Below are positions 2,554 through 49,900 of a stretch of DNA of 64,000 nt, piece by piece. Position 1 is the stretch's first letter; the number at the start of each line of letters is the position of its first letter. The position numbers and the translations under genes are program-made. Below the pieces are notes generated by a model. The model was not told the origin of the DNA, made no database searches, and saw nothing but the letters and a program-made list of their open reading frames with translations. The DNA is from Candidatus Nomurabacteria bacterium (GTDB taxonomy: Bacteria; Patescibacteriota; Minisyncoccia; Phycocordibacterales; UBA918). The DNA is taken from contig CP060227.1 in assembly GCA_023898525.1 (NCBI GenBank), positions 1,021,932-1,085,931 on the forward strand, given 5' to 3'.

Positions 2554-2620
2554 TGCAAGTTAGTACCACCTGGTCAATTTTACGGCTGAAATCTTCGGCT
2601 AGGCGGTTTATACTATTACT

Positions 2621-3349
2621 ATGAGTACGAATTATGTTATTTCTAGTAAACCGTTAATTGTGGGCGGTTCAGACCAAAAATATGTTCTGACCATACGTGA
2701 CTTACCGGCTGATGAGAAACCGCGGGAAAAATTAGTCAAACATGGTCCGTCTGTTTTAACCGCTGTGGAGTTATTGGCAATTGTATTAGGTCAAGGTACA
2801 AAAAAAGAAGAGGTTTTTAGTATGGCAAACAGATTGGTGCAAGAATACGGTGAGCGCAATATTTTTACTCAAACAGATGCTAAAACCTTGGCCGAGAACT
2901 TAGAGATACCGTTAATAAAAGCACTGCAAATCATCGCTGTTGGTGAACTCGGTAGACGTTTCTTTGAGAAAAAGAAAAACGGAGCAACAGTTATACGAAC
3001 GGCCAAAGATGTATTTGACTATGTAGCAGATATGCGGGCTTTGCCAAAAGAATATTTACGGGGCATTTATCTAAATAGTCATTATCAGGTAGTGCACGAT
3101 GAAGTGATTTCTATAGGAACCGTCGACGCCAATATCATTCATCCTCGGGAAGTATTTAGACCGGCTCTTTCTTACTCAGCTTCTGCTCTTATTTTGGTCC
3201 ACAATCATCCTTCCGGAGTATTATCACCAAGCCAAGAAGATGTATTGGTCACGGCGCAAGTCAAGGAAGCCGGTCAGTTATTGGGGATCGAGCTTATTGA
3301 TCATGTGATTGTAACGGTCGATGGTTTTAGTAGTATGTTGTCTAAGTAG
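2621..3349 (+). CDS. radC: RadC-family JAB/MPN domain protein (UPF0758)
   Basis: N-terminal HhH-like region (LTAVELLAIVLGQG) and C-terminal JAMM motif HNHPSG....SxxD typical of RadC. Confidence 0.85.
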   Translation: MSTNYVISSKPLIVGGSDQKYVLTIRDLPADEKPREKLVKHGPSVLTAVELLAIVLGQGTKKEEVFSMANRLVQEYGERNIFTQTDAKTLAENLEIPLIKALQIIAVGELGRRFFEKKKNGATVIRTAKDVFDYVADMRALPKEYLRGIYLNSHYQVVHDEVISIGTVDANIIHPREVFRPALSYSASALILVHNHPSGVLSPSQEDVLVTAQVKEAGQLLGIELIDHVIVTVDGFSSMLSK

Positions 3350-3353
3350 TATT

Positions 3354-3647
3354 ATGTCTGTTATTGAGAATGACTTTTCTTACCAAATAAAAGTTGCTTA
3401 TTGGTTGGTTCGTGATGCCGAAAATGAAGAGGATACACGTTTGAATTTTCATGTTAAAAGTGGTGACTATTTTTCTACTCTAGCTACAATACTCGGTTTT
3501 ATAGAAGAGAAGGTAGGGGAACAAGATTACGGTGGTAGCTTGGACTATGAATTAAACGTATTAAAACGAATGAAGAAAGACTTACTTTATCTGAATGATA
3601 ATTTTGATATAACACGAAAAAATAACAATAAAGCTGATCTAGAGTAG
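3354..3647 (+). CDS. hypothetical protein
   Basis: ORF with ATG at 3354. The track start 3321 overlaps the radC 3' end. No homology recognised. Confidence 0.35.
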   Translation: MSVIENDFSYQIKVAYWLVRDAENEEDTRLNFHVKSGDYFSTLATILGFIEEKVGEQDYGGSLDYELNVLKRMKKDLLYLNDNFDITRKNNNKADLE

Positions 3648-3662
3648 TGCTATAATTTGTTT

Positions 3663-4028
3663 ATGGAAAGCGTACCTCAGGTGCTAATTGGATTAGTAGC
3701 TATCACTCACTTGTACTTTTTTTGGTTTGAGTTTTTTGGGTGGTCAAAAGCCATAACTGTTTTATATAAACAAGAGTTACCCGAAATTTTTCAGTTACCG
3801 ACTAAAGTATTGATGACAAACCAAGGCTTGTACAACGGTTTTTTAGCGGCCGGTTTGATTTGGACATTTTTTATTTCTGATCCCTTGTGGCACACCAGAA
3901 TCAGTGTTTTCTTCTTGGTTTGTGTAATCGTGGCGGGGACTTTTGGGGCAATGTCGCTAGGGAAAAGAGTTTTTATGATGCAAGCTCTGCCGGCAATTCT
4001 GGCCTTGGCAGCCATCTGGTATCTTTAG
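3663..4028 (+). CDS. small integral membrane protein (DUF1304-like?)
   Basis: About 120 aa with 4 predicted TM helices. Track start is TTG at 3657 and the ATG is at 3663. Confidence 0.45.
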   Translation: MESVPQVLIGLVAITHLYFFWFEFFGWSKAITVLYKQELPEIFQLPTKVLMTNQGLYNGFLAAGLIWTFFISDPLWHTRISVFFLVCVIVAGTFGAMSLGKRVFMMQALPAILALAAIWYL

Positions 4029-4092
4029 TCAAGTTACTTTTATAATGTAAAGTTGACTTTACTTCCTGTACGTAGATGTTTATAATATATAC

Positions 4093-5280
4093 ATGAGTGA
4101 TAAGAATTTAATTTTTATAGTGATACTGGCTGTGGCCGTTATTATAATCATCTGGTTCCTGTCAGCTAAATCACCTGTCAATAATACCAATCCAATGCAA
4201 AATATAACTAACAATCAAATAGAAACTCCTACCGATTCTCAGAGCGTTGCCACTGCTACGGCACTGTTGGCTAACGGCTGCTTTTGGTGTGTGGAGCATG
4301 ATCTAGAGGAAGTGAAGGGAGTTATCAATGTCGAGTCTGGTTATGCTGGTGGGTCAACTGAGAATCCTACTTATGAAAATTACGCTGCTGGTGGACATAG
4401 AGAGGTGGTGCTGGTAACTTATGACCCAACCCAGGTTAGCTACGCCAATTTGGTAGAGCATATCCTTAAACACGGCGATCCAACTGATGCTGAAGGGTCT
4501 TTTTATGACCGCGGTCCTCAGTACACACCAGCGATTTATTATGAAAACGAAAAGGAAAAAACCACCGCTTTAGCGGTAATTAAAGCAATTGATGGATTGC
4601 ATGTTTTTGCTGATCCGCTGCCGATTGTTGTTATACCGCGAGTGCAATTTTGGCCAGCAGAAGAATATCATCAGGATTACGCCAAGAAGAATCCTCTTCG
4701 TTATAAGTTTTATCGTAGTTCATCAGGCAGGGACAACTTTATCGAAAAGCACTGGGGTGACGCAGCTGGCGAATTTTCGGTGACTGATTTACCAGTAAAG
4801 GACAGTGCCAAGGTTATCTACAATGAAAATTACTGGGATGGTTACCAAAAGCCGTCTGAAGCTGAACTGCGTTCCGTGTTGACCGATTTACAGTACAAAG
4901 TGACGCAAAAGGAGGGTACTGAGCGACCATTTACTAATGTTTATGATAAGAATTATGAGCAGGGAGTATATGTAGATATTGTGTCGGGCGAACCATTGTT
5001 TTTGTCCACTGATAAGTACGACTCCGGTACCGGTTGGCCGTCGTTTGTAAAGCCGATTTCAGATGAGGCGGTTACGCTGGAAGAAGATAATACTTTATTT
5101 ACTTCGCGCACTGAAGTACGTTCTGCACATGCGGATTCACACCTTGGACACGTGTTTGACGATGGTCCTACTGATCGGGGTGGTAAGCGGTATTGTATGA
5201 ATTCTGCTGCTTTGAAATTTGTTCCTCTAGCTGATATGGAAAATGAGGGTTATGGGTATTTGTTACCGCTTTTTGAGTAG
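4093..5280 (+). CDS. msrAB: fused peptide-methionine sulfoxide reductase MsrA-MsrB with N-terminal membrane anchor
   Basis: N-terminal TM helix. MsrA active site GCFWC. MsrB signatures GWPSF and RYCMNSAAL with the [10 protein letters not shown] motif. Confidence 0.85.
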
Positions 5281-5356
5281 AGAAAGATAGGGAGGACGGT
5301 GAAGGTAAAAAGAGAACCCCACTTTGGATGGGGTTCAGATGGCATTATCTATACTG

Positions 5357-6169
5357 TCACTCACTTATGACGGTACGGTTTCTACCTGTATTTTTGGCTT
5401 TGTATAAAGCTTCGTCTGCTCGTTTGATGACACTATTAACCGTTTCAGTGCTCCTATTGGTTTTTATAAAACTTGCAACCCCACAGCTTATGGTTACTTC
5501 GCGTTTGATTTCTGAGCCGTTTAGCCTGGATGTGTCTATCTTGCTTACATCCTGACGAATACGTTCAGCTATTTTGCTGGCAGCTTCGCGATCACCGTCT
5601 ACAATGACTGCAAATTCTTCACCGCCATAACGAGCAGCTACATCATGATCTCTGATGTTGCTGGTTATACACTTCACAACAGCTTTAATTACCAGATCTC
5701 CAAAAGGATGACCAAGAGTGTCGTTTATGGTTTTAAAATTATCTATGTCAACCAGGACTAATGAAGTCGGGCTACCATTACTGTGAAGGTGTTGTGCAAA
5801 CTCTAACATTTGCTCGTCAAAAAACTTGCGGTTACTCATCTCTGTTAAAGGATCGATTCTCAAGGCTTGTTCAAGCTGCTTTTTTAAATGGATTATTTGA
5901 AGCTCCTTAAGAATATCATCCCAGATTTGCCTATTGAGCAGTGGACATTTTGGTTTCACCAGATCTCCATACAATTCTTTCATATAGAGTAGTCTTTGTG
6001 TGTACAAATAGTCCACTTCTTCTTTGTTCAAATCACATTTCTGCGCAAATTTATACACTCGCTTGCTAGGATCACCATGACTGATTTTCCTACTACAACC
6101 TGATTGGTTCATGAGATCTTCTCCCTGAATGTTTAAGTCCGTTTGGACAATACCATAAATAACATACAT
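5357..6169 (-). CDS. GGDEF-domain diguanylate cyclase with N-terminal uncharacterised sensor region
   Basis: RIDPLTEMSNRKFF plus the active-site RYGGEEFAVIV motif. No TM segments. Confidence 0.8.
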   Translation of the reverse strand: MYVIYGIVQTDLNIQGEDLMNQSGCSRKISHGDPSKRVYKFAQKCDLNKEEVDYLYTQRLLYMKELYGDLVKPKCPLLNRQIWDDILKELQIIHLKKQLEQALRIDPLTEMSNRKFFDEQMLEFAQHLHSNGSPTSLVLVDIDNFKTINDTLGHPFGDLVIKAVVKCITSNIRDHDVAARYGGEEFAVIVDGDREAASKIAERIRQDVSKIDTSRLNGSEIKREVTISCGVASFIKTNRSTETVNSVIKRADEALYKAKNTGRNRTVISE

Positions 6170-6259
6170 TGACTAGAGCTTTTTTGTACCTACAACCAGT
6201 TTTCCGACGAAACATTCTCTGCTATGCTTAAGAGTAATTATTAGCATTTATTTAAATGT

Positions 6260-6916
6260 ATGACTAAAAGAAATATTATTATAGTGGCGGCGGTGGTGAT
6301 TCTGGTTATCGCTTACTTTTTGGTAGTTGGTGCTAACAGAACAGAAAATTTGAGTAACGGTATAAGCGAAGTTGTGACCAAGGAGCAGATGGAGGAAAAG
6401 AAAAACTTATTAGGACAAGGTACTTTGAATGATCTTTTAATGCGTAACGAAAACCTAGAGTGTACCATTAAGTATAAAAAAGATGATGTGTCAGCAGGAG
6501 TGGTTGAAGGTTCGTACTTTACCAGTCAAGAGCGCTTGCGTGGAGACTTTGTTTTTACTGATTCAGGCATGCAGATTGTTTCATCAATGATCATGAAAGA
6601 CGGGGTGATGTACACTTGGTCTGAAATCGATGGGCAAAAATATGGGATGAAAATGATGGTTGGTGAGGTTGAAGATAGTGAAGTGGAGACCAGAGAGGCG
6701 GTGCCACTTGATAAAAATGTCGAGTATGATTGTCATCCTTGGATGAATGTTGATAGTAGTATCTTTGAAGAGCCTAAAGACATTATTTTTAGAGATTTTG
6801 GAGATGTGACGAATACCGGTATGGAGTACGGAAATATCTATAATAATGGTGAGGCGAGCGGTACCATTGATATGGAGGCAATGATGCGGGAGATGGAGAT
6901 GAGGTATGGTGAGTAA
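6260..6916 (+). CDS. hypothetical membrane-anchored protein
   Basis: N-terminal TM followed by a Met/Glu-rich soluble domain. No family recognised. Confidence 0.45.
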   Translation: MTKRNIIIVAAVVILVIAYFLVVGANRTENLSNGISEVVTKEQMEEKKNLLGQGTLNDLLMRNENLECTIKYKKDDVSAGVVEGSYFTSQERLRGDFVFTDSGMQIVSSMIMKDGVMYTWSEIDGQKYGMKMMVGEVEDSEVETREAVPLDKNVEYDCHPWMNVDSSIFEEPKDIIFRDFGDVTNTGMEYGNIYNNGEASGTIDMEAMMREMEMRYGE

Positions 6917-40639: not shown

Positions 40640-41760
40640 CCGGCTTAACTATGAATAATCTCACATACATATGAGACTCCTTAAATAAGGAGTAATGAGA
40701 ATACATAACATTTTAAGGAACACCAGAGGGTTTGCCAAAGCGGCTGATAGTGCTCTAAAGTGGCAGACAATGAAAAACAAACAGGAGGTCGAAAGAAGAG
40801 TTAAAATACTCACGTTTTGGCAAAAACATGGTACTAATACCACCAAAGATGCTTTTGGCGTATCTAGACCAACTTTATTTAGATGGCAAAAAGAACTAAA
40901 TGATAGTAATGGTAATATCCAAGCCCTAGACCCCAAGAGTACTGCTCCTAAGAAACGAAGAGTGAGACAGATATCACCACCACTAGAGCAAGCTATTATC
41001 AACTGGCGTACTAAGCGACCACGGATTGGTGGGAAAAAGCTGGTACCGCTATTGAAGAAGGAAGGATTCAAGGTGTCAGTTTCCTATGTTAATCGCTGTA
41101 TCAGTGATCTTAAAGAACTAGGTAGACTACCGAATCCAGTTAAGCTCTCTTGGTACGCTAAGAGTGGTACACACAAAGAACAAAGAAAAACCAAGGTTAA
41201 AAAACAAAGAAGACCACAAAAACAAGGTTTGGAGATAGACACTATCGTGAGACACATAGATGGCACTAAACGGTACATACTCACCGCCATAGACATAGAA
41301 AGACGGTTTGCTTACGCTCGTACTTATACCAGTCATTCTTCAAATAGTGCTCGAGACTTTCTAAAACAACTTATACACTATACCCCTTTTAGTATAGATG
41401 AGATACAGACTGATAATGGTTCAGAATTCGCTAAATACTTCCACGAAGCTTGTTTAACTCTTAACATCAACCATTATCACACTTATCCACGTTGTCCTAA
41501 GATGAATGCCTATATAGAGCGATTCAATCGTACCGTTCAAGAAGAACACATTATTTATCACCGATCCCTGCTTCGAGATAGTATTCCTGACTTCAATGAT
41601 TCACTGAATGAATGGTTGTATTGGTATAACCATGAGAGACCGCATGAAGGACTGGGTCTTTTGTCGCCCATGGAGTATTATAGAGAACATTATGAGATAG
41701 AGTCTCAAAGGTGGTGAGATCGTACAAACTATTGACTGTACGCTTGAATTATGGCAGTGT
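40640..41760 (+). mobile_element. IS481-family insertion sequence (boundaries approximate, terminal IRs not resolved)
   Basis: Single transposase ORF with a strong SD. Flanking sequence lacks other genes. Ends not identified by eye. Confidence 0.5.
40695..41717 (+). CDS. DDE transposase, IS481 family (HTH + rve integrase core)
   Basis: N-terminal HTH region. DDE triad in AIDIERRF / IQTDNGSEF / YIERFNRTV. TAAGGAG RBS 5 nt upstream of the ATG. Confidence 0.8.
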   Translation: MRIHNILRNTRGFAKAADSALKWQTMKNKQEVERRVKILTFWQKHGTNTTKDAFGVSRPTLFRWQKELNDSNGNIQALDPKSTAPKKRRVRQISPPLEQAIINWRTKRPRIGGKKLVPLLKKEGFKVSVSYVNRCISDLKELGRLPNPVKLSWYAKSGTHKEQRKTKVKKQRRPQKQGLEIDTIVRHIDGTKRYILTAIDIERRFAYARTYTSHSSNSARDFLKQLIHYTPFSIDEIQTDNGSEFAKYFHEACLTLNINHYHTYPRCPKMNAYIERFNRTVQEEHIIYHRSLLRDSIPDFNDSLNEWLYWYNHERPHEGLGLLSPMEYYREHYEIESQRW

Positions 41761-42006: not shown

Positions 42007-42360
42007 ATGACTTACCCAAAGAGGTTGACCTTTTTTATGCTAATTCTTCTCTGTTTATATACCTTTCTTATTCTAACGTCACACGTAATTCACATAGAAA
42101 ACGACGTCTCCAAAAGGGAATGTGAGGTAGGTAGGGTTATAGGAATAGACACTGAGATTAATTTTGATGATGATGGTGTAGGTAGTGGCTGGCAGTCATT
42201 GGTTAAAATAAAACTAGAACAAGAGGTTGTTGAGGTCTATCTACCAAATCTCACTGATCTTCTATCTTTTGAATTGCATGATCTGGTAGACTACTGTCAT
42301 GGAGGCAATGAAGAAGAAAGGGTTAGAAAGGTTTGTAATTCTGCTTGTGTTAGTGTCTAA
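42007..42360 (+). CDS. membrane-anchored hypothetical protein
   Basis: GGAGG RBS. N-terminal TM. Cys-containing C-terminal part. Confidence 0.4.
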   Translation: MTYPKRLTFFMLILLCLYTFLILTSHVIHIENDVSKRECEVGRVIGIDTEINFDDDGVGSGWQSLVKIKLEQEVVEVYLPNLTDLLSFELHDLVDYCHGGNEEERVRKVCNSACVSV

Positions 42361-42897
42361 TACAAAAAACTACAGCGCAGTTGTCTACTTACAGACACTG
42401 CGCTGGTTTCATTATACTCATTCTCCGATTACAGGTGGAGGTAGTTTGCGATATGGTCTCAAAGTTCCAGAAATGTTGGTTAGGACTATTATAAAATAGC
42501 ACCAACGCTTAAAAGAATGAAGGTACACTTTTACAACATAATTACCACCCCAAATTCTTTCCTGGTGTATTTTTAGTGTAGTTGCCGTTCTTTCGACGTC
42601 AACACTATCTGTACCTATTAACGACACTATGTGTACTTTATAGACCTCAATTATTTTACTCATTATAGTTTCTTGTACCGCCGCATCGTATGATTTTGTA
42701 TTCATAACAATCTCTCCCTTAACTTAAAATTAAGAATTAAATCTAAAGCGGGTTTAAACTACAAACCACAGTAATTGTACGATAATCGAATATCATTGTC
42801 TATAGTTTAAAACGCTTGATAGGTTAGTATTTTCCTATTATGCTAATATATGGAGTACGGGTATTAAATTTTCCAAACCTAAAGTGGAGGAAGAGAC

Positions 42898-43272
42898 ATG
42901 AGTTACATCTTAAATTTTTTACGGTGTAAAAAACCTAGATTTCGTCCGGTTGATAAATGTGTTAATCAATATGAATTAGAATTGATTTTTAAAAAACATA
43001 GGGATTACATAGCTGCACAATTTTATAATAACTATTCTACGTTCAATTATAAAAGTGCCTGTGATGAAGATGGGGCGAAATTTAAAGAGTCTATCATAAA
43101 GAGTTTGATTGAAAGGTTTGCGAAACTCTTAAATTCCAGTGAAGTTTCAGGTGCGCAGCTCGAAGTGTGGGTAGGTGATGTTTTTCGATTCTGTTATAAC
43201 CCGATGACCGGCAATATGTTACCTATCTCAGCCTTTGCCAATTGGCTTAGAGGCTTACATCCAACTATCTAA
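42898..43272 (+). CDS. hypothetical protein
   Basis: GGAGGAAG RBS. 124 aa soluble protein. No homology recognised. Confidence 0.4.
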   Translation: MSYILNFLRCKKPRFRPVDKCVNQYELELIFKKHRDYIAAQFYNNYSTFNYKSACDEDGAKFKESIIKSLIERFAKLLNSSEVSGAQLEVWVGDVFRFCYNPMTGNMLPISAFANWLRGLHPTI

Positions 43273-43376
43273 TAATGAGCCCATATAATCGGCAGTACAC
43301 TAGAAGTAAAAGTGTACTGCCGTTTTCTGTATTTACAAAACAACCCAGTTTGTGATTAAATTATAATAATTTTTTC

Positions 43377-43670
43377 GTGGGGGAGGTCAAAATGCATATA
43401 ATACTTTGGAGTATTTCGATCATTGATCTTTGTTTTGTACTTATTTTCCTTGGGCTGACGATTTATAAAAATGTAATCCTAGTTAAAGAAAAGGGTGATA
43501 TTGAAGCTGATGATGTCAGGCTTGGACAGTTTCAATTAACTTTCTTGTCCATGATCGTTGTCACTACAGTGATTTTGATTGTCGTCTGGACTTGCGCCTA
43601 CTTAGCAGGTGATCTTAACTCTGTTTGTGACGGGTGTGAGAGGTATTTGACAAATGTCCATTCTGATTAA
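43377..43670 (+). CDS. small 2-TM membrane protein
   Basis: GGGGGAGG RBS. Two hydrophobic helices. CDGCERY motif. Confidence 0.4.
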   Translation: MGEVKMHIILWSISIIDLCFVLIFLGLTIYKNVILVKEKGDIEADDVRLGQFQLTFLSMIVVTTVILIVVWTCAYLAGDLNSVCDGCERYLTNVHSD

Positions 43671-43675
43671 TAACC

Positions 43676-43717
43676 AAAGGCCGGTTTTGCTCGCGCAAAA
43701 CCGGCCATCTTTTATTG
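43676..43717 (+). terminator. rho-independent terminator
   Basis: GGCCGGTTTTGC-tcgc-GCAAAACCGGCC followed by a T-rich tract. Confidence 0.55.
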
Positions 43718-44343
43718 TGACTAACGTGGTTAAGTAGTCTGGAGTCGCAAGTCTTGAATTCCTCTGTCTCCCTTTTTAACGTTGGGGAGCATACTTCTTT
43801 TCACTTCTATTTCTCCACCTATTTCGTCAAATAAAAGAACACGTTCGTCGTTGACATGATGAACTAGCCAGGTTTCGGAATATTCTGCCGAATTTAAGCC
43901 ATCCATACTTGTACAACTAAGGTTTTCTTTGCACATAATTGTCTCCCGCATTTTTGTAAAAAAGTATGTGTCAAAACTCTATGCGTAAATATGTCACAAA
44001 AAGACCGCATTGAAAAGATGTTATCTAAATATTTGTGTGTTGTATTAAAGCTAGTTAACAGGTTAGGAACCGTTAAGGCACAGTTTATACCCGAGTTATA
44101 CATGGGTTATGTACAGGGGCTGGGGATAAAATGAGACTTATTTTTAAGTATTTTGAGTCATTTTATCCCCAGTTTTTGCCTATTTGAGAGCTGTGGATTT
44201 GGTTGTTTTTGACAATTGGCCAAGTGTGTCCTTGGTGTTTTAAACTACTATCATGCAGTGGCGAAACGGGTTGTATGCGTTTTACCTCCGCGTTTTTAAA
44301 AGTGTAATTAGTAGGGTTAATTAATTTATACAACTTAATATTT

Positions 44344-45618
44344 ATGAAAAAAATTATTACAAGTTTGGGAATGATTGTCTTCGTAGGAGCGGTCGTTGTT
44401 GGAGGAACGGGGGCCTTCTTCAGCGACACCGAGACTTCAACCGGCAACGTGTTCACGGCTGGGGCTATTGATTTAAAGGTTGATAGTGTTGGTCATATCA
44501 ATGGCTTAGTTTGTCATGATGATACTGATGATGAGACAGATAACTCACGTTGGATTCCTGAAGATCAGGTGGTCTGGAACCCTGACACAGAGCAGAATGA
44601 ACTAGCGGGTGACGCTAATGTACCAGCTGCTATCGATGAGTACAACGAAGCCAATCCAGCCAATGTACCGCAAGCTGGCGAACCTTGTGGTAGTACTTGG
44701 GCTTTGACTGATTTGTTGGATGGAGTACACACTTTCTTCAACTTTGATGATATCAAGCCGGGCGACGAGGGTGAAAACACGATTTCACTACACATAGACA
44801 ACAACGATGCTTGGATGTGTGTTGATATTGATATCACCAAAAACGATGACGTGTCTTCAACCGAGCCAGAGCTTGAAGATGGTGATGTAGAAGAGGAGGG
44901 TACTGATGATTTTGATGGAGAATTGGCACAACACATGAACTTCTTTGCTTGGCTAGATGATGGGGACAATATTTGGCAAACAGATGAACTGCCACTGTTT
45001 ACAAACACTTCAGGTCCAGCAAGTGATGTGCTAGGTGGACGAACCTACGCTCTAGCCGACTCAACTACCGGTAACGGGCCGATTGCTGGTGGTGAAACAC
45101 ATTACATCGGTCTAGCTTGGTGTGCCGGTGAAATAGACGCTTTAACACCGGGAGTTATCCTTTGTGATGGCTCAACTATGGGTAACGAAGCCCAAACGGA
45201 CATGATGGAAGCTGATATTGCTTTCCGAGTGGAGCAGGCTCGAAATAACGGTGACTTTACTTGTGTGGGGCGAGATGTTCAGTTACCAGCTCCAGCATTG
45301 ACTATAGATAAAGAAGTTACATTTTCTAGTTCAACTATAGTTGGTGTGGAAGTTAGTGATTTTCAGTTAGTTATAACTGGACCTGATGCAGCAACAACCA
45401 CAACTATATTGAGTGACGAAGTCAAAGCTGAAGGATTGGCAGCTGGTGTCTATACTATCAGTGAGGTTTATTCTGGCGACCCATCTGGAGTGGTTTGGGA
45501 CGCTCAGTTTAGTGGAGCTTGTTCTGAAATAGGAGATTCTGATGATGGTACTATTACTTTAGCAAATGGGGATGATCTTCTTTGTAACATAACAAATGTA
45601 ATTTCACCAATTCAATAA
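44344..45618 (+). CDS. TasA/camelysin-like (peptidase M73-type) secreted protein, paralogue 1, with C-terminal Cna-B/prealbumin-like domain
   Basis: Signal peptide ending VGGTGAFFSDTETSTGNVFTAGAIDL, close to the B. subtilis TasA N-terminus and the SipW-cognate signal class. Core FNFDDIKPGDEGENTISLHIDNNDAWMCVDIDIT aligns with TasA NLKPGD...FENNGS. C-terminal GVYTISEVYSGDPSG motif. Confidence 0.75.
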   Translation: MKKIITSLGMIVFVGAVVVGGTGAFFSDTETSTGNVFTAGAIDLKVDSVGHINGLVCHDDTDDETDNSRWIPEDQVVWNPDTEQNELAGDANVPAAIDEYNEANPANVPQAGEPCGSTWALTDLLDGVHTFFNFDDIKPGDEGENTISLHIDNNDAWMCVDIDITKNDDVSSTEPELEDGDVEEEGTDDFDGELAQHMNFFAWLDDGDNIWQTDELPLFTNTSGPASDVLGGRTYALADSTTGNGPIAGGETHYIGLAWCAGEIDALTPGVILCDGSTMGNEAQTDMMEADIAFRVEQARNNGDFTCVGRDVQLPAPALTIDKEVTFSSSTIVGVEVSDFQLVITGPDAATTTTILSDEVKAEGLAAGVYTISEVYSGDPSGVVWDAQFSGACSEIGDSDDGTITLANGDDLLCNITNVISPIQ

Positions 45619-45735
45619 TAATACCTATTTAGCCGTTCCGAATTTCAGCTTTATGGCTGGAATTTGGCGGGCTGAAGGGGGAATCAGTGTGATTGAGGTT
45701 TAAAAACGTATTTATTCAGCCTTAAAAACTTAACT

Positions 45736-47121
45736 ATGCGACGAATATTCTTGAGTTTAGTGATGATTACAGTGGTTGGCGGGGCACTGACCTTCGGGGC
45801 AACTAAGGCCTTCTTCAACGATTCCGAAACTTCGGTAGCTAATGTATTAGCAGCCGGAGCGATTGATCTTTTGATCGACAACGAGAGCTACTATAACGGT
45901 CTTTTTAATGAAAATACCTCTTGGGAAAAGAAGGATTTGACCATTGAGAAATTCTTTGACTTTGATGATGTAAAGCCGGGGGATTATGGTGAGGATACTA
46001 TATCGGTACATGTCGAAAATAACGACTCATACATGTGTGCTGATGTGACTTTGACTTCCAATAACGAAAACGGGCAGACTGAGCCGGAAGCACTGGTAGA
46101 CCAAACTACCGGAGAAGATGAGGGTGAGTTAGCTGGTTTAGTCAATTTTATCTGGTGGGCTGACGATGGAGATAATGTACTGGAAGATGATGAGGAAGTT
46201 ATCTCCGGTCCGGGGCCAATCGGGGCTTTGCCACTAAATGAACCGTACTCAATCACACTGGCTGATGCCACGAAGAATATATGGAACGAGGATCAGCTAC
46301 CCGGTCCGGTAAATGGTGCCGAAACCTACTATATCGGCAAGGCTTGGTGTTTTGGTGAAATAGTACCTGATCCGCTTCCGCAAGACGGCGAAGCTGACGA
46401 CTGGTCTCCGGCCGATGACAATAACGGCAATCAGAAGTCAGGTGAGCCGTCTGATGGTGGTTTCCTTTGTAGCGGGGCTGAGCTCGGCAATGAAAGTCAG
46501 ACTGACTCGCTGACTGCTGATGTTGCCTTCAGTGCTGTGCAAGCTCGTCATAACCCCAACTTCATGTGTGAGCCAGTTGATCTGACTTGTGATCCGGAGC
46601 AATCATATGCAACTAAGGTAGTGGCCTTTTCACAAGGAGTTCGCAGAAACGGCACTCCGGTAGACCCGAGTCGCTCAAATCCAACTTTTGCTCTTGGAGC
46701 GCCACAGAGTGCTGGAACGTCGTTTGATAATCCAGTGGTTCCAAACAGCTTCTTTAGTCTAGGATTCAATCCAGACGCACAGCAGCTTGAAGGTGGTTGG
46801 ATCGTAGTTGAGTTTGAAGATGGATATATTGTGGATGGTCCAGGTAATGACCTTAGAGCTTGGGAAGTGACTGGTGGTAATAGTTATCCAGTCGAAAAGA
46901 TAAAGATTGAAGTGAGTCAAAACGGCTCAGATTGGCACTTGGTATCCGCTAGTTTAGATCGGGATGTAGAGGCAGACTTGGCTTCGTCTGGTTTAGCGTG
47001 GGCCAAGTATGTCAGAGTGACCGATGTATCACCACGCGCACCGTTTGAAGCAACTGCTGATGGTTATGATTTGGATGCTTTCAGTGCACTTAACTGTGCT
47101 ACGTTGCCACCAAATATATAA
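45736..47121 (+). CDS. TasA/camelysin-like secreted protein, paralogue 2, with extra C-terminal domain
   Basis: Signal peptide ending GATKAFFNDSETSVANVLAAGAIDL. Core FFDFDDVKPGDYGEDTISVHVENNDSYMCADVTLT. Conserved acidic block EPEALVD...GELAGLVNFIWWADDGDN. About 150 aa extra C-terminal region. Confidence 0.75.
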   Translation: MRRIFLSLVMITVVGGALTFGATKAFFNDSETSVANVLAAGAIDLLIDNESYYNGLFNENTSWEKKDLTIEKFFDFDDVKPGDYGEDTISVHVENNDSYMCADVTLTSNNENGQTEPEALVDQTTGEDEGELAGLVNFIWWADDGDNVLEDDEEVISGPGPIGALPLNEPYSITLADATKNIWNEDQLPGPVNGAETYYIGKAWCFGEIVPDPLPQDGEADDWSPADDNNGNQKSGEPSDGGFLCSGAELGNESQTDSLTADVAFSAVQARHNPNFMCEPVDLTCDPEQSYATKVVAFSQGVRRNGTPVDPSRSNPTFALGAPQSAGTSFDNPVVPNSFFSLGFNPDAQQLEGGWIVVEFEDGYIVDGPGNDLRAWEVTGGNSYPVEKIKIEVSQNGSDWHLVSASLDRDVEADLASSGLAWAKYVRVTDVSPRAPFEATADGYDLDAFSALNCATLPPNI

Positions 47122-47170
47122 AAGAGGAGTGGTCTAAAGGGAGAGGGAGGTTCAATAACTTTCATTATAT

Positions 47171-48199
47171 ATGCCAAAAATATTCTACCAAAAAGGAGTT
47201 AAAATCACGCTTTTAGGTGGAATTTTGGTGTTTCTTGTGGTGATCTTGTCGGCTAGTGGTGTCAGTGCAGGCTATACCTTTGCGACCTATAACGATGGTT
47301 ATGATGGTAAACACAAAAAAAGTGGTCATGGTAAGGGTCTGGAACTCACGATTGACAGCCGCGCTGTCTACAATGGAGTTTTGCAACCTGCTTTGACTTG
47401 GGACTTAAAACACCTAGTACCGGGAGTGGATCACTTCTTTGATTTTGACGATGTGAAGCCGGGGGATATGGGCGAGCATACCATCAGTCTTCATGTGAAG
47501 AAAAGTGCCGCTTATGCCTGCTTGGATTTTCAGAACTTGGTAGATGATGAAAATGGCATGAACGAGCCGGAAGCGCTGGTAGACGATGAGGAGGGTGGAG
47601 AATTGTCGCAATATCTTGAGTTTTTTGGTTGGCGCGACGATGGTGATGGAGAGTTTGAGGTTGGAGAGAAGGTGTTGTTTGGTTTGGAGGATCAGGCGGC
47701 TAGTGTTTTGCTAAATGACACGACTTATCCAATCGAGGATACTTATACCGGTAAGAGCTGCAAGATGAACTCGGTTAATTATGTGGGCATAATCTGGTGT
47801 GCTGGAGACCTTATGGTAGACGTCGACACGGCCGAAGTTAGTTGTAGTGGAGAAGGGTTGGGCAATGTCATACAGACCGATTCTATGAGTGTGGACGTGC
47901 GCCTAAGAGCAGTTCAATCTAGCTACAACAACGGTTTTAGGTGTTCTGCAAAATCAAAGCCAAAGAAACCAAAGGGTAATAATGGTCACGGTAACGATGA
48001 GGATCATAATGATGACTCAAACCCCGGCAATTCTAATGACGAAGATGATCATACTGATGATGATGGAGTGCCTCCGGGTCAGGAAGAGGAGATTGAAAGT
48101 GAGCGTTTTACTCGAGTTAGTGATTTGCGTCGAGAATCGCCAAGCTTCCGCAATAATCTATGGAGTAATCTAGCCGTCTTAATGGGTCGAAATATGTAA
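47171..48199 (+). CDS. TasA/camelysin-like secreted protein, paralogue 3 (divergent N-terminus, His/Asp-rich tail)
   Basis: Strong GGGAGAGGGAGG RBS. Core FFDFDDVKPGDMGEHTISLHVKKSAAYACLD and acidic block EPEALVDDEEGGEL...FGWRDDGDGEF shared with paralogues 1-2. C-terminal HGNDEDHNDDSNPGNSNDEDDH tail. Confidence 0.65.
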   Translation: MPKIFYQKGVKITLLGGILVFLVVILSASGVSAGYTFATYNDGYDGKHKKSGHGKGLELTIDSRAVYNGVLQPALTWDLKHLVPGVDHFFDFDDVKPGDMGEHTISLHVKKSAAYACLDFQNLVDDENGMNEPEALVDDEEGGELSQYLEFFGWRDDGDGEFEVGEKVLFGLEDQAASVLLNDTTYPIEDTYTGKSCKMNSVNYVGIIWCAGDLMVDVDTAEVSCSGEGLGNVIQTDSMSVDVRLRAVQSSYNNGFRCSAKSKPKKPKGNNGHGNDEDHNDDSNPGNSNDEDDHTDDDGVPPGQEEEIESERFTRVSDLRRESPSFRNNLWSNLAVLMGRNM

Positions 48200-48200
48200 T

Positions 48201-49847
48201 ATGAAAGCTTTTTTCTCAACAATATTATATACACTGTTTGGTCTCATAGTAATTGGTTTGACGGTGTTGTTTGTGGCACCTGCTACTCCTCTACTCTCTG
48301 GTTTTGATGTGAAGATTGTAAAATCAGGTTCGATGGAACCGCAGATTATGACTGGAGCAGTAGTCGTAATAAAAGAGAGTGTACAGTACGGGGTTGGAGA
48401 CATTATTACCTTTAACAATACTGATACTGAGATTCCAACTACCCATCGTATTGTTGGTACCGAGAGTGTTGATGGAGTTAGTTATTTTGTCACCAAAGGG
48501 GATGCAAATGAAGAGCGGGACATGAGTCTGGTGGCGGTCGGTGATGTTATTGGTAAGGTGATGGTTAATGCGCCTTACGCCGGTTATGTACTTGACTTTG
48601 CAAGGCAACCGCTAGGTTTTGTGCTTTTGGTGGGGATACCAGCGCTTTTAATTGTCTTGGATGAATTGGTGAATATCTGGCAGGAGGTTAAAAGAATGCG
48701 CAGACCTAAAGTAGCTAGGAAAGTTACGACACCACTGGAAGTGGCTCCTTATAGTCCAAGGGGACTTGATAAAACGCGGCCGGCTAAGCTAATGGATATA
48801 ACTCCTATTGTAAGAAACGAACTGGGTGCTAGGGAGGAGGTAAAAGCAGCTACACAGCCTCGAATGTATCATGATATTAGACCAAAGATGTCCGCTTTGG
48901 TCACATCGGTGCTTGTGTTTGCGCTCGTGACTGGTTTTACTAGTCTGGAAGACATATCAACTCTGTCTTACCCGATGGATATTGAGGCCAGTTTGGATAA
49001 TTCTATGCAAGCTAAGCGGGTTGATTTTTCAGTGTCGCCCACTACTTCCGAGATAGATTTTTCTATTGAGAAGGTAACTAATATCGAGGTGATTGTTACG
49101 CCAGACGGGGTTTCGGCCACTGAATTGGTTTATGATGTGGCGGTGGAGAAGGTAAGTGGTGATTCTGCTTTTTGTGATGATGTACTCGTAGATGCAGAAT
49201 CGCCACTTATTTACGCCGATCAATTTAAAAATCTAGCCGATAGTGGAGTTTCTTTCATCGGTTCCTGGCCACTTAATTTTTCGATGGCAGGAGTACATAA
49301 TTCAGGAGAGACTTGTAGCTTCAATCTAGTGTTTAACGGATATTTGGCTGGCACTGATGGTATGACCGGCTATATTGATACGGAGATAGTGAGTCTGAAC
49401 TTTATAGCTGAAACCGCCTTGCCGCTTGTACCAAGTTCGAGTCCTCAAGCTACATTCACAGCTTTGCTACCGGTTGGTACTTCTACTCCACAACCCGGAG
49501 CGATGTCGGAAGAAGTCTCGGGAACATCTTCTACTGCTAAAGAGGCAAGTTCTACTGAAGAGATTATTGACTCTGAAATTACTGGTGAAGGAGAGGGAAG
49601 AGAAGAAAATAACGACAATGATCAAGGAATTGTGGTTGAGGAAAAGGTACAAGAACCACCTGTAGAGGATATAGAGGAGGTAAAGGATAATACTGGCCAA
49701 GAAGCAAAAGAGGAAGAGAATACACCGGAAGACGAAGAGGTTGTGAGAGAGGAGGCTCAAGATACAGAAAACGAGGCGGTAGAAGTTCCGCAAAAAGAAA
49801 CTGCTAGCGTGGTGGATGATGAGACTAGAGCAGGTGTTGGGCTTTAG
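48201..49847 (+). CDS. archaeal/ER-type signal peptidase I (SipW-like) fused to long C-terminal extracytoplasmic Glu-rich extension
   Basis: Starts 1 nt after the upstream stop. Catalytic boxes SGSMEP, GDIITF, THRIV (His), TKGDANEERD. Two TM helices around the catalytic domain. Third TM near residue 225. Acidic Glu-rich tail, 548 aa. Confidence 0.8.
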   Translation: MKAFFSTILYTLFGLIVIGLTVLFVAPATPLLSGFDVKIVKSGSMEPQIMTGAVVVIKESVQYGVGDIITFNNTDTEIPTTHRIVGTESVDGVSYFVTKGDANEERDMSLVAVGDVIGKVMVNAPYAGYVLDFARQPLGFVLLVGIPALLIVLDELVNIWQEVKRMRRPKVARKVTTPLEVAPYSPRGLDKTRPAKLMDITPIVRNELGAREEVKAATQPRMYHDIRPKMSALVTSVLVFALVTGFTSLEDISTLSYPMDIEASLDNSMQAKRVDFSVSPTTSEIDFSIEKVTNIEVIVTPDGVSATELVYDVAVEKVSGDSAFCDDVLVDAESPLIYADQFKNLADSGVSFIGSWPLNFSMAGVHNSGETCSFNLVFNGYLAGTDGMTGYIDTEIVSLNFIAETALPLVPSSSPQATFTALLPVGTSTPQPGAMSEEVSGTSSTAKEASSTEEIIDSEITGEGEGREENNDNDQGIVVEEKVQEPPVEDIEEVKDNTGQEAKEEENTPEDEEVVREEAQDTENEAVEVPQKETASVVDDETRAGVGL

Positions 49848-49866
49848 TACCTATAAGTATAAAAAT

Positions 49867-49900
49867 ACGTCCGTCATTTGAATGTGACGGACGTTTTTCT
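49867..49900 (+). terminator. rho-independent terminator ending the TasA-like/SipW-like operon
   Basis: ACGTCCGTCA-tttgaatg-TGACGGACGT followed by TTTTT. Confidence 0.65.

What the first reader, a model, noticed from the sequence alone, without database searches (positions are those of the whole stretch)
44344..49900. Operon of three TasA/camelysin-like secreted paralogues followed by a SipW-type signal peptidase
Three consecutive genes encode proteins whose N-termini end in GGTGAFFSDTE...FTAGAIDL or GATKAFFNDSE...LAAGAIDL. These closely resemble the SipW-processed N-terminus of B. subtilis TasA (GGGTWAAFNDI...FASGTLDL) and the camelysin/TasA core (KPGD...xNNxS). The next gene starts 1 nt after the third paralogue and encodes an archaeal/ER-type (His-dependent) signal peptidase I with SGSMEP, GDIITF, THRIV and TKGDAN boxes. 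The unit ends in a strong terminator.

In Bacillus, tapA-sipW-tasA builds biofilm amyloid-like fibres. Here the order is tasA-like x3 then sipW-like, there is no TapA, and the peptidase is fused to a large extracellular domain. In a small-genome, possibly epibiotic lineage this could be a dedicated surface-fibre or adhesin system. That functional reading is inference.
Basis: partly seen in the sequence, partly recalled or inferred. Interest (0 to 1): 0.85.

Follow-up and report, generated by a model that had tools for sequence, protein, structure and literature searches.

The report
TasA-like fibre operon with SipW peptidase
A small candidate-phylum bacterium carries a self-contained gene cassette that most likely builds a TasA-type surface fibre, and the cassette appears to include a starter, a stopper and a conserved RNA hairpin that nobody has described.

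Summary
The four genes, the peptidase motifs, the 1-nt junction and the terminator are real. The window comes from a Candidatus Nomurabacteria (Patescibacteria/CPR) genome.

- **p3** is a core paralogue, but it lacks the 17-residue N-terminal strand that p1/p2-like proteins carry (0 of 31 against 157 of 167). It belongs to a subfamily found almost only directly upstream of sipW.
- **The domain fused to the peptidase** is a fifth conserved component. In about half of 69 related loci it is a separate downstream gene. It has its own signal-anchor, the same TasA-type N-terminal strand, an Ig-like sandwich and a disordered acidic tail. That makes it a TapA-like analogue.

A covarying RNA hairpin that matches no Rfam family follows p1 and recurs in 35 loci.

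Best model (inferred): a donor-strand-exchange fibre with an initiator (p4 C-terminal half), elongators carrying adhesin-like modules (p1, p2), a terminator (p3) and a dedicated peptidase. TasA homologues in Patescibacteria were already noted, so this is a new variant of a known kind.

The parts
43679..43706 (.). Bidirectional terminator-like hairpin that closes the upstream unit. It marks the left boundary of the roughly 640-nt leader/promoter region of the cassette.
   Evidence: 12 pairs, 8 of them G-C, found on both strands.
44344..45618 (+). p1, a TasA-superfamily subunit (proposed elongator). Signal peptide is residues 1-24, with predicted cleavage at GTGA|FF. The conserved 17-residue N-terminal strand is residues 25-41 (44416-44466). 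It has a jelly-roll core with a roughly 60-aa insertion, and a weak SpaA_2 prealbumin-like module at residues 319-416.
   Evidence: TIGR04088 26.7 bits (cut-off 19) and PF12389 24.7 bits (cut-off 22.5). Paralogy. Cleavage site placed by alignment to the TasA mature N-terminus. SpaA_2 E 6.5e-4 here, but 20 of 56 relatives reach as low as 1.9e-22.
45621..45694 (+). Conserved intercistronic RNA stem-loop directly after the p1 stop. It has a near-invariant base helix UAGCCG...CGGGCUG, a covarying apical helix of 10-13 bp, and a small 3' hairpin with a purine-rich loop. Proposed to act as a processing, stabilising or attenuating element that sets subunit ratios.
   Evidence: - MFE -39.1 kcal/mol, z -3.9.
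- 8 of 24 pairs compensatory in 6 sequences.
- The covariance model finds 42 matches in 35 loci, all on the operon strand.
- 94.2% of cells are paired, against at most 51.5% in the slid controls. 21 of 24 pairs show double changes.
- 38 of 42 matches lie within 111 nt downstream of a p1/p2-like gene, and none follows a p3-like gene.
- Single copy in the window.
- No Rfam family matches.
45736..47121 (+). p2, a TasA-superfamily subunit (proposed elongator). Signal peptide is residues 1-25, with predicted cleavage at ATKA|FF. The 17-residue strand is residues 26-42 (45811-45861). The jelly-roll core runs to about residue 280. The C-terminal region has a weak discoidin (F5/8 type C)-like match at residues 354-429.
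   Evidence: - PF12389 22.9-24.6 bits over residues 9-148.
- AF2 model of residues 1-281: pLDDT 83.2, pTM 0.76, with residues 21-39 below pLDDT 50.
- Foldseek top hit 8aur_A, E 1.5e-3, probability 1.00.
- F5_F8_type_C E 0.0057; neuropilin E 0.14.
47171..48199 (+). p3, a core paralogue without the N-terminal strand (proposed acceptor-only terminator or end subunit). It has a longer signal-anchor and a conserved G-x-T-F-A|T site (cleavage predicted after A38). An 18-residue non-conserved Gly/Lys/His linker then leads to LELTIDS. The tail is acidic and His-rich.
   Evidence: - No Pfam or NCBIfam hit, yet 31-37% identical to the p1 core with all invariant blocks and the conserved cysteines.
- The p3-like subfamily holds the last position before sipW in 30 loci and occurs elsewhere once.
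- The strand motif is present in 0 of 31 p3-like proteins, against 82 of 87 and 75 of 80 for p1- and p2-like.
- The spacing from cleavage site to IDLKxDS is exactly 17 in 161 of 161 p1/p2-like proteins, but 3-26 (median 7) in p3-like.
48201..48710 (+). p4 N-terminal half: SipW/Sec11-type (S26B) signal peptidase I. TM1 is residues 8-26. The catalytic residues are Ser44, His82 and Asp101. TM2 is residues 139-157.
   Evidence: - TIGR02228 98.1 bits (cut-off 51.85); NF046067 SipW 110.7 bits, below its 190 equivalog cut-off.
- SEC11A 7p2p E 1.5e-7, with SGSMEP, HR(I/V) and GD(A/N)N aligned.
- Hydropathy and motif positions.
48711..49844 (+). p4 C-terminal half, a fused fifth component (proposed TapA-like initiator or anchor).
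- K/R-rich cytoplasmic linker, residues 158-230.
- TM3, residues 231-249.
- Predicted cleavage at T-L-S256|Y257.
- 17-residue strand YPMDIEASLDNSMQAKR, residues 257-273 (48969-49019), then VDF.
- Ig-like beta-sandwich, residues about 275-403, with conserved Cys325 and Cys372.
- Acidic disordered tail, residues 431-548.
   Evidence: - A separate ORF directly downstream of a short sipW in 31 (plus 5 overlapping) loci, fused in 23, among 69 loci.
- 209 representative clusters in the exhaustive search, a mix of fused and stand-alone.
- The motif G-x-T-[VI]-S-Y-F-x-D-x-E-x-S-x-x-N is conserved.
- hhalign to the core family aligns only this N-terminal segment: probability 92.6%, E 4.5e-7.
- AF2 pLDDT 84.8.
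- Topology and composition.
49867..49894 (+). Intrinsic terminator-like hairpin that ends the cassette.
   Evidence: 11 pairs, 6 of them G-C, followed by TTTTTCTC. Genes beyond it are on the other strand and are not conserved with the cassette.

Best explanation
This is a self-contained TasA-superfamily fibre cassette of Patescibacteria.

Shown:
- p1, p2 and p3 are secreted paralogues with a divergent TasA-like jelly-roll core.
- p4 begins with an intact SipW/Sec11-type signal peptidase.
- p4 ends with a member of a separate conserved family. That family carries its own signal-anchor and the same 17-residue N-terminal segment as p1 and p2.
- p3 belongs to a subfamily that lacks this segment and is found almost only directly upstream of sipW.
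- A covarying RNA hairpin follows p1.

Inferred mechanism:
1. All four exported parts go through Sec and are cut by the SipW domain at T-x-A|F (p1, p2), T-F-A|T (p3) and T-L-S|Y (p4 C-terminal half, in cis or in trans).
2. The freed N-terminal strand of one subunit completes the beta-sheet of the next. This is donor-strand exchange, as in TasA.
3. The Ig-like p4 C-terminal protein can only donate a strand. It therefore starts the fibre, and perhaps tethers it, as TapA does.
4. p1 and p2 both accept and donate, so they elongate the fibre. They display prealbumin-like and discoidin-like adhesin modules.
5. p3 can accept but not donate, so it ends the chain.
6. The hairpin after p1, together with the gene order, would keep the major subunit abundant and the end pieces and peptidase scarce.

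The likely role is attachment to surfaces or host cells.
For: Family assignment:
- PF12389 and TIGR04088 score above their cut-offs for p1 and p2. At E<=0.01, 47 of 56 relatives match PF12389 and 39 of 56 match TIGR04088.
- hhalign aligns the signal peptide end plus N-terminal strand with verified B. subtilis TasA. This places the cleavage site at the experimentally known A27|A28.

Donor strand:
- The strand segment has low confidence in the monomer model, with residues 21-39 below pLDDT 50. That is what would be expected of a donor strand that is free in the monomer.
- Its length is invariant at 17 residues in 161 of 161 p1/p2-like proteins.
- TasA residues 28-38 are the donor strand, and deleting them abolishes fibres. 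The TapA N-terminus resembles that strand and nucleates assembly (PMC9674648; PMC10151520).

Peptidase:
- TIGR02228 at 98 bits, with Ser/His/Asp aligned to SEC11A.
- A related genome has lepB as well as sipW, so sipW is a dedicated extra peptidase.

Fifth component and p3 subfamily.

Synteny: between 1 and 6 core genes are followed by sipW on the same strand in all 69 loci that reach a sipW gene. The flanks are not conserved.

Expression: in cultured Ca. Microsyncoccus PMX.50, sipW is gene 00004 and is expressed. The gene just upstream of it is a core-family member (L077 3374-4627). By gene order this corresponds to PMX.50_00003, which is among the five most highly expressed signal-peptide genes.

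RNA element.
Against: - No fibre has been seen and no multimer was modelled.
- Sequence similarity to TasA is significant only over the signal peptide and strand. Profile searches against PDB sequences find nothing.
- The window's own p4 strand has Pro at P2' (YPMD instead of YFxD), so cleavage or strand function could differ here.
- 10 of 69 loci show no fifth component, and about half lack a p3-like gene. The three-role scheme is therefore not universal.
- The polarity could be the reverse, with p3 as the cell-proximal acceptor and the p4 C-terminal protein at the tip.
- The effect of the RNA hairpin on expression has not been tested.
- The covariation counts come from a model-fitted alignment.
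Confidence: 0.6

Rival explanations
1. These are non-polymerising surface or secreted adhesins. p1-p3 and the p4 C-terminal protein are exported, trimmed by a dedicated SipW and stay monomeric on the envelope. The conserved N-terminal segment serves only as a SipW recognition or export element.
For: - The C-terminal adhesin-type modules (SpaA_2/4, VWA, discoidin, choice-of-anchor C) could act on their own.
- The TasA monomer is stable and soluble (PMC9674648).
- The fold match to TasA is only modest.
Against: - A recognition element would not need an invariant 17-residue length extending well past the cleavage site.
- It would not be selectively deleted in one position-specific paralogue that keeps the cleavage site.
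- It would not be shared with an otherwise unrelated Ig-like protein.
- Every structurally characterised TasA-superfamily member cited in the papers read here forms a filament by strand complementation (PMC9245690, PMC9674648, PMC12518558).
Confidence: 0.2
2. The parts are the same but the polarity is the opposite. p3 is the cell-proximal acceptor at the base of the fibre. The p4 C-terminal protein, with its long acidic tail, is the distal tip that plugs the last open groove.
For: p3-like proteins have longer, more charged N-regions and longer hydrophobic segments than p1 and p2. The p4 C-terminal protein carries a long disordered tail that could act as a tip. Nothing tested here fixes the direction.
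Against: - The T-F-A|T site is conserved in p3-like proteins, which argues for cleavage and release.
- The p4 C-terminal protein is physically linked to the membrane peptidase in a third of loci.
- The B. subtilis counterpart TapA is cell-associated and acts at the start of the filament (PMC10151520).
Confidence: 0.12
3. The product is a calcium-dependent two- or three-dimensional matrix or tube, like archaeal AbpX lattices or cannulae, rather than a capped linear fibre.
For: The proteins are very acidic (17-19% D+E) and have invariant acidic loops: FDFDD, TEPE and WxDDGDN. The title and text of PMC12518558 report that calcium-ion coordination helps drive polymerisation of cannulae, whose subunits belong to the TasA superfamily. 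The same paper notes that archaeal TasA-like genes often sit next to signal peptidase I.
Against: No calcium site was modelled. The existence of donor-only and acceptor-only classes fits a linear polymer with defined ends better than a lattice.
Confidence: 0.06
4. These are camelysin-type (Peptidase M73) secreted metalloproteases.
For: The Pfam family that matches is named Peptidase_M73.
Against: There is no HExxH motif in any of the four proteins. The match covers the signal, strand and early sandwich region, not a catalytic site. The family's structurally characterised members are fibre subunits (PMC9674648).
Confidence: 0.02

Closest known systems
Bacillus subtilis tapA-sipW-tasA (TasA biofilm fibres)
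   Same: - A dedicated archaeal-type signal peptidase is encoded with its substrates.
- The substrate has a T-x-A| cleavage site, followed by an aromatic-rich N-terminal strand and an (I/L)DL anchor.
- The jelly-roll subunit is the best structural match.
- An accessory protein has a long signal-anchor, a TasA-like N-terminal strand, an Ig-like domain with a Cys pair and a disordered tail.
- The peptidase and accessory genes are tightly coupled: overlapping codons in Bacillus, fused here.
   Different: - The gene order is (subunit)n-sipW-accessory.
- There are two to five subunit paralogues, each with extra C-terminal adhesin-like modules.
- The cores are larger (about 260-310 aa), with four conserved cysteines.
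- There is a donor-strand-less paralogue.
- The accessory protein is not detectably homologous to TapA and is fused to SipW in this genome.
- A conserved intercistronic RNA is present.
- The proteins fall far below the TasA and SipW equivalog cut-offs.
Bacillus cereus sipW-calY1-bc1280-calY2 (camelysin/CalY fibres)
   Same: Several TasA paralogues share one operon with sipW and there is no TapA homologue. One paralogue is thought to take the TapA role (PMC10151520).
   Different: sipW comes first. According to the cited paper, the extra factor BC1280 is exclusive to the B. cereus group. In the papers read here, no donor-less paralogue, adhesin-module fusions or peptidase fusion is described.
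Archaeal TasA-superfamily filaments (AbpA/AbpB bundling pili, AbpX, CanX cannulae, Sulfolobus 0406 thread)
   Different: They are more distant than TasA in structure. The ABP operon has no dedicated peptidase. They come from different lineages with different accessory genes.
Chaperone-usher and type V pili of diderm bacteria
   Different: There is no usher, no periplasmic chaperone and no outer membrane. Fold similarity at this level is generic Ig-like and is not evidence of homology.

Membership tests
TasA/camelysin family (Pfam PF12389 Peptidase_M73) | Score at or above the Pfam gathering cut-off (22.5 bits) | tested here: met
   - p1: 24.7 bits, but only over residues 15-48.
- p2: 22.9 bits full length, 24.6 bits for the core, over residues 9-148.
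- p3: no hit, so not met for p3.
- 47 of 56 relatives match at E<=0.01.
TasA/camelysin family | SipW-cognate signal peptide (TIGR04088, cut-off 19 bits) | tested here: met
   - p1: 26.7 bits.
- p2: not reported, although the motif is visible and aligns to TasA.
- p3: none.
- 39 of 56 relatives match.
- hhalign to verified TasA over 45 columns: E 4.1e-5, probability 70%.
TasA/camelysin family | TasA-type jelly-roll fold | tested here: met
TasA/camelysin family | Polymerisation by N-terminal donor-strand exchange | not testable with these tools
   Only indirect evidence is available. The strand is conserved at an invariant 17 residues and has low confidence in the monomer model. No multimer prediction or experiment was available.
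TasA orthologue (NCBIfam NF046066 BioflmMtrxTasA equivalog) | Score at or above 450 bits | tested here: not met
   p2 scores 12.6 bits; p1 and p3 have no hit. These proteins are superfamily members, not TasA orthologues.
Archaeal/ER-type signal peptidase I (TIGR02228; MEROPS S26B, SipW/Sec11) | Score at or above the cut-off, with the catalytic Ser, His and Asp conserved | tested here: met
   98.1 bits against a cut-off of 51.85. Ser44, His82 and Asp101 align with the SGSMEP, HRV and GDNN motifs of human SEC11A, 7p2p.
Bacillus SipW equivalog (NF046067) | Score at or above 190 bits | tested here: not met
   110.7 bits. It is SipW-like, but not an orthologue by NCBI's criterion.
TapA (TasA anchoring/assembly protein) | Sequence or specific fold homology to TapA (PDB 6HQC/6QAY) | tested here: not met
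TapA (functional analogue) | A long signal-anchor cut by SipW, an N-terminal segment resembling the subunit's donor strand, a complete Ig-like domain, a disordered C-tail and coupling to sipW | tested here: met
   - Signal-anchor with a cytoplasmic region of about 40-50 aa.
- The strand aligns to the core family's strand: probability 92.6%, E 4.5e-7.
- Ig-like sandwich, pLDDT 84.8.
- Two conserved cysteines.
- Acidic tail with 39 D/E in 118 residues.
- Fused to or directly downstream of sipW in 59 of 69 loci.
- Actual cleavage and nucleation could not be tested.
Sortase-anchored Gram-positive pili | An LPxTG-type sorting signal and a sortase gene | tested here: not met
   None of the four proteins has LPxT[GAS]. 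No neighbouring gene is conserved with the cassette.
Known RNA families (Rfam 15) for the 45621-45694 hairpin | Match to any covariance model | tested here: not met
   Nothing at gathering score. At E<=1 there is only a chance U6 hit on the opposite strand.

The most novel reading that the evidence does not exclude
Patescibacteria carry a minimal pilus system that needs no chaperone or usher and whose logic can be read from sequence. It has four elements:
- an initiator that can only donate a strand and is fused, or translationally coupled, to the peptidase that activates every part;
- elongators that carry interchangeable adhesin modules;
- a terminator that can only accept a strand;
- a dedicated intercistronic RNA that fixes their ratios.

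With thousands of family members and high expression in a cultured archaeon-parasitising relative, this could be a principal attachment organelle of the Paceibacteria-type CPR lineages.
Probability: 0.3. Interest if true: 0.8.

Novelty: new variant of a known kind. Interest (0 to 1): 0.62.

Why it matters
CPR/Patescibacteria are a large share of bacterial diversity and mostly live attached to other cells. Apart from type IV pili, their attachment machinery is poorly known. This cassette is very common in them: at least 2,937 core-family proteins among the candidates scored, and 80 loci across Paceibacteria, Microgenomates and relatives. It is self-contained, and a homologue is highly expressed in a cultured parasite.

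If the three-role model holds, it gives a compact test case for how chaperone-free donor-strand fibres are started and stopped. That question is still open for TasA, where TapA's role was settled only recently and no terminator is described in the papers read here.

The RNA hairpin is a new, strongly covarying candidate regulatory element in a lineage where few have been described. In the public records looked up here, p1-p3 and the fifth component are labelled only 'hypothetical protein' or 'uncharacterized', and p4 'signal peptidase I'. The reading therefore also improves annotation.

Tried and rejected
- **Word-indexed homology search with the p4 C-terminal domain alone** found nothing. The exhaustive HMMER search then found 209 clusters, so the first result was a sensitivity artefact.
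- **Sequence-profile searches against PDB chains** found no TasA or TapA. This applied to the core alignments of 3 and 56 sequences and to the C-domain family. The C-terminal modules of p1 and p2 gave only non-significant hits.
- **Cluster look-ups of distant C-domain relatives** returned no names or taxonomy, so I cannot say whether that family exists outside Patescibacteria.
- **Metalloprotease reading** rejected: no HExxH.
- **Sortase-dependent pilus** rejected: no LPxTG and no conserved neighbour.
- **Dispersed-repeat (REP-like) reading of the hairpin** rejected: it is single copy in the window and always lies on the operon strand after a subunit gene.
- **Canonical intrinsic terminator for the hairpin** judged unlikely: no U-run follows it.
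- **Upstream leader (43707-44343)** shows only weak, patchy DNA similarity to two relatives, and the promoter scan was no better than shuffles. No promoter is claimed.
- **Not run:** a collection-wide scan for the RNA motif. Its short invariant parts would give hundreds of chance matches.


Full report
**What is in the sequence**

Window 44344-49847 holds four ORFs on the + strand:

| ORF | Coordinates | Length |
|---|---|---|
| p1 | 44344-45618 | 424 aa |
| p2 | 45736-47121 | 461 aa |
| p3 | 47171-48199 | 342 aa |
| p4 | 48201-49847 | 548 aa |

- p4's ATG follows p3's TAA after one base.
- A terminator-like hairpin lies at 49867-49894, and another at 43679-43706 closes the preceding unit.
- Exact matches in public data name the source as a Candidatus Nomurabacteria MAG on a 1.09-Mb contig. 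There p1-p3 are 'hypothetical protein' (locus tags H6779_05370, _05375 and _05380) and p4 is 'signal peptidase I' (USN87799.1).
- The cassette has a higher G+C content (0.42-0.47) than its flanks (0.36-0.38).

**The three paralogues**

p1, p2 and p3 share a core of about 260-310 residues. They are 31-41% identical over full length and 37-49% over the core. Invariant blocks are FFDFDDVKPGDxGExTISxH, TEPE, GEL, WxDDGD, YxGxxWCxGE and CxGxxGNxxQTD, and four cysteines are invariant across 56 relatives.

Family matches:
- p1 passes TIGR04088 (SipW-cognate signal peptide) at 26.7 bits against a cut-off of 19.
- p1 passes PF12389 at 24.7 bits against 22.5, and p2 passes it at 22.9-24.6 bits over residues 9-148.
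- p3 matches nothing.
- All three are far below the TasA equivalog cut-off.

Structure of the p2 core (residues 1-281, 56-sequence alignment):
- The AlphaFold2 model is confident: pLDDT 83.2, pTM 0.76.
- The exception is residues 21-39, the segment just after the signal peptide.
- The TasA fibre subunit 8aur_A is the best PDB match by Foldseek (E 1.5e-3, probability 1.00, TM 0.38/0.44).

Profile searches against PDB sequences found nothing. It is identical to 8aur_A over residues 28-261. hhalign then aligned the family profile to it over the end of the signal peptide and the N-terminal strand (45 columns, E 4.1e-5). In that alignment p1 A24|F25 and p2 A25|F26 fall on the known TasA cleavage site A27|A28.

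These are therefore divergent TasA-superfamily members, not TasA orthologues.

**The peptidase**

- p4 residues 1-170 score 98.1 bits on TIGR02228, against a cut-off of 51.85. They score 110.7 bits on the Bacillus SipW equivalog, which is below its cut-off of 190.
- They align with human SEC11A (7p2p, E 1.5e-7), with SGSMEP, HR(I/V) and GD(A/N)N in register.
- That alignment places the catalytic residues at Ser44, His82 and Asp101.
- The 'would refute' condition about a missing Ser/His dyad is not met.

**First correction: p3 is a different kind of subunit**

I fetched 80 loci from GTDB genomes, all from Patescibacteria or from MAGs whose contigs carry the same cassette. In every one of the 69 loci that reach a SipW gene, between 1 and 6 core genes are followed by sipW on the same strand.

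Sorting the core genes by their best match to p1, p2 or p3 gave these results:
- p3-like genes occupy the last position before sipW in 30 loci and occur elsewhere only once.
- The N-terminal motif A-F-F-x-D-x-E-x-S-x-x-N is present in 82 of 87 p1-like and 75 of 80 p2-like proteins. The misses are start-codon artefacts or near-variants. It is present in 0 of 31 p3-like proteins.
- The distance from the predicted cleavage site to the (I/L)DLKxDS anchor is exactly 17 residues in 161 of 161 p1/p2-like proteins.
- In p3-like proteins a conserved G-x-T-F-A|T is followed by only 3-26 non-conserved, Gly-rich residues, with a median of 7.

In TasA, residues 28-38 are the donor strand that completes the next subunit's sheet, and deleting them abolishes fibres (PMC9674648). 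By that analogy, p3-like proteins keep the acceptor body and the cleavage site but have lost the donor strand.

**Second correction: the 'large extracellular domain' of p4 is a fifth component**

p4 has three hydrophobic segments:
- TM1, residues 8-26
- TM2, residues 139-157
- TM3, residues 231-249

A K/R-rich linker (17 K/R against 10 D/E) lies between TM2 and TM3. This fits an in-out-in-out topology with the C-terminal part outside the cell.

After TM3 comes S-T-L-S|YPMDIEASLDNSMQAKR-VDF. Again there are 17 residues between a T-x-S site and a (V/L)DF anchor.

Distribution in relatives:
- In 31 loci (plus 5 with overlapping ORF calls) this part is a separate ORF directly downstream of a short sipW of 167-260 aa.
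- In 23 loci it is fused, as it is here.
- In 10 loci it was not detected.
- An exhaustive HMMER search found 209 representative clusters, a mix of fused (about 500 aa) and stand-alone (about 300 aa) forms.

The stand-alone proteins have, in order:
- a cytoplasmic N-region of about 40-50 aa;
- a membrane segment;
- the motif G-x-T-[VI]-S-Y-F-x-D-x-E-x-S-x-x-N-x-L-x-A-x-x-L-x-F;
- a beta domain of about 150 residues with two conserved cysteines;
- a Pro/Glu-rich tail.

The fused forms keep the motif. The window's clade has the variant YPxD.

Relationship to the core family and to known folds:
- Profile-profile comparison with the core family aligns only this N-terminal segment (probability 92.6%, E 4.5e-7).
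- 6 of 36 members touch TIGR04088 weakly, and one hits PF12389 at E 2e-5.
- The AF2 model (pLDDT 84.8) is an Ig-like sandwich.

TapA itself has a 43-residue signal sequence and an N-terminal segment (residues 44-57) that resembles the TasA donor strand and is sufficient for function. It also has a stable Ig domain with a C92-C188 disulfide that cannot accept a strand, a dispensable disordered C-terminus, and a gene that overlaps sipW (PMC10151520; PMC9674648).

The fifth component matches this architecture point for point, but without detectable homology. I call it a TapA-like analogue, not a TapA.

**A conserved RNA between p1 and p2**

- The 117-nt p1-p2 spacer folds into a long stem-loop: -39.1 kcal/mol, z -3.9.
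- It is more conserved at the DNA level than the flanking genes, with 96% identity to L079.
- Six copies already show 8 compensatory pairs out of 24.
- A covariance model found 42 matches in 35 loci, all on the operon strand.
- On that alignment, which was fitted to the model, 94.2% of cells pair, against at most 51.5% when partners are slid by one to three columns. 21 of 24 pairs show double changes, and no shuffle out of 500 reaches any measure.
- 38 of 42 copies lie within 111 nt of the stop of a p1- or p2-like gene, and usually overlap the stop. 37 of those are followed by another strand-bearing subunit gene, and none follows a p3-like gene.
- The base helix UAGCCG...CGGGCUG is nearly invariant and the apical helix covaries freely. 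A small 3' hairpin, CUGR-(purine loop)-YCAG, also seems to covary, but I judged that by eye and did not test it.
- No U-run follows the structure.
- It is single copy in the window and matches no Rfam family.

I propose, as an inference, that it is a processing, stabilising or attenuating element that keeps the first subunit or subunits more abundant than the downstream end pieces and the peptidase.

**Wider context**

- The core family is large. At least 2,937 proteins score E<=1e-3 among the 8,000 candidates scored, and nearly all named ones come from Parcubacteria, Paceibacterota or relatives.
- The C-terminal modules vary: SpaA_2 in 20 of 56, SpaA_4 in 8, F5/8 type C in 5, VWA in 3 and choice-of-anchor C in 10. 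This suggests subunits that display adhesion domains.
- p1's own SpaA_2 match and p2's discoidin match are weak.
- None of the cassette's flanking genes is conserved across the loci, so the unit is self-contained.

Expression evidence comes from the cultured archaeon-parasite Ca. Microsyncoccus PMX.50 (L077):
- The paper's supplement lists PMX.50_00004 as sipW (K13280), expressed, alongside a separate lepB.
- The ORF directly upstream of sipW in L077 is a core-family member (L077 3374-4627).
- The paper names PMX.50_00003 among the five most highly expressed signal-peptide genes and describes it as a 'galactose-binding domain fold' (PMC10936435).
- Equating PMX.50_00003 with that ORF rests on gene order.

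**Model**

The best explanation is a TasA-type donor-strand-exchange fibre with four roles:
- a dedicated peptidase (p4 N-terminal half);
- an initiator or anchor that can only donate (p4 C-terminal half);
- elongators that carry adhesin-like modules (p1, p2);
- an acceptor-only terminator (p3).

An intercistronic RNA would help to set the stoichiometry.

The following are shown:
- the family relationships;
- the intact catalytic residues;
- the conserved and the missing strands;
- the fusion/split relationship of the fifth component;
- the synteny;
- the RNA covariation.

The following are inferred:
- the cleavage sites;
- polymerisation;
- the three roles;
- the polarity;
- the function of the RNA.

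**Novelty**

Wang et al. 2022 (PMC9245690) already listed Patescibacteria among phyla with PF12389 homologues. NCBI names a few relatives 'TasA family protein' or 'SipW-dependent-type signal peptide-containing protein'. The basic identification is therefore not new.

Four things appear undescribed in the searchable literature:
- the conserved cassette architecture;
- the donor-less paralogue;
- the TapA-like fifth component and its fusion to SipW;
- the RNA element.

I rate this a new variant of a known kind, of moderate to high interest.

Noticed in passing
window 45621-45694 (+); 42 copies in 35 related loci, e.g. L079 3917-3990, L002 6890-6963 and 8489-8562: A strongly covarying RNA stem-loop that is in no Rfam family. 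It sits directly after the stop codon of strand-bearing TasA-like genes and always lies on the operon strand. The base helix UAGCCG/CGGGCUG is invariant. A second small hairpin with a purine-rich loop seems to follow it.
   Followed up: yes
window 40695-41717 (+): An IS-type transposase lies 2.6 kb upstream of the cassette (rve_3 E 8e-16, rve E 4e-12, HTH_32 E 8e-9). Between it and the cassette are several small ORFs with no family match (42007-43670). This stretch and the downstream flank have lower G+C (0.36-0.38) than the cassette (0.42-0.47), which may indicate a variable or recently rearranged region.
   Followed up: partly
window 43707-44343: An unusually long non-coding leader of about 640 nt lies upstream of p1, in a compact genome. 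It has only weak, patchy similarity to two relatives (L079, L012). No convincing sigma-70 promoter is present, and there is no Shine-Dalgarno sequence directly before the p1 ATG.
   Followed up: partly
window p1-p3 cores; alignment A3: The proteins are very acidic (17-19% D+E). Invariant acidic loops (FDFDD, TEPE, WxDDGDN) and four invariant cysteines suggest calcium sites and two disulfides. Calcium dependence is reported for archaeal TasA-superfamily cannulae. No metal site was modelled here.
   Followed up: no
L077 (Ca. Microsyncoccus archaeolyticus PMX.50) 1992-6654: A cultured archaeon-parasitising relative has the same cassette: two core genes, a 167-aa sipW and a separate fifth gene. 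By gene order, its highly expressed 'galactose-binding fold' protein PMX.50_00003 appears to be the core gene next to sipW. That paper did not link it to TasA.
   Followed up: partly
window 44565-45008 (-): An antisense ORF of 147 aa inside p1 'matches' 36 loci. This is simply the reverse-strand shadow of the conserved p1 coding sequence, not a gene.
   Followed up: yes
loci L004, L005, L010, L013 and others: Many GTDB records that carry this Paceibacteria-type cassette are titled 'uncultured Candidatus Saccharibacteria', 'Gammaproteobacteria', 'Bdellovibrionales' or 'Pseudomonadales'. These titles look like automatic mislabels of MAGs, so record names in this collection should not be used for taxonomy.
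   Followed up: no
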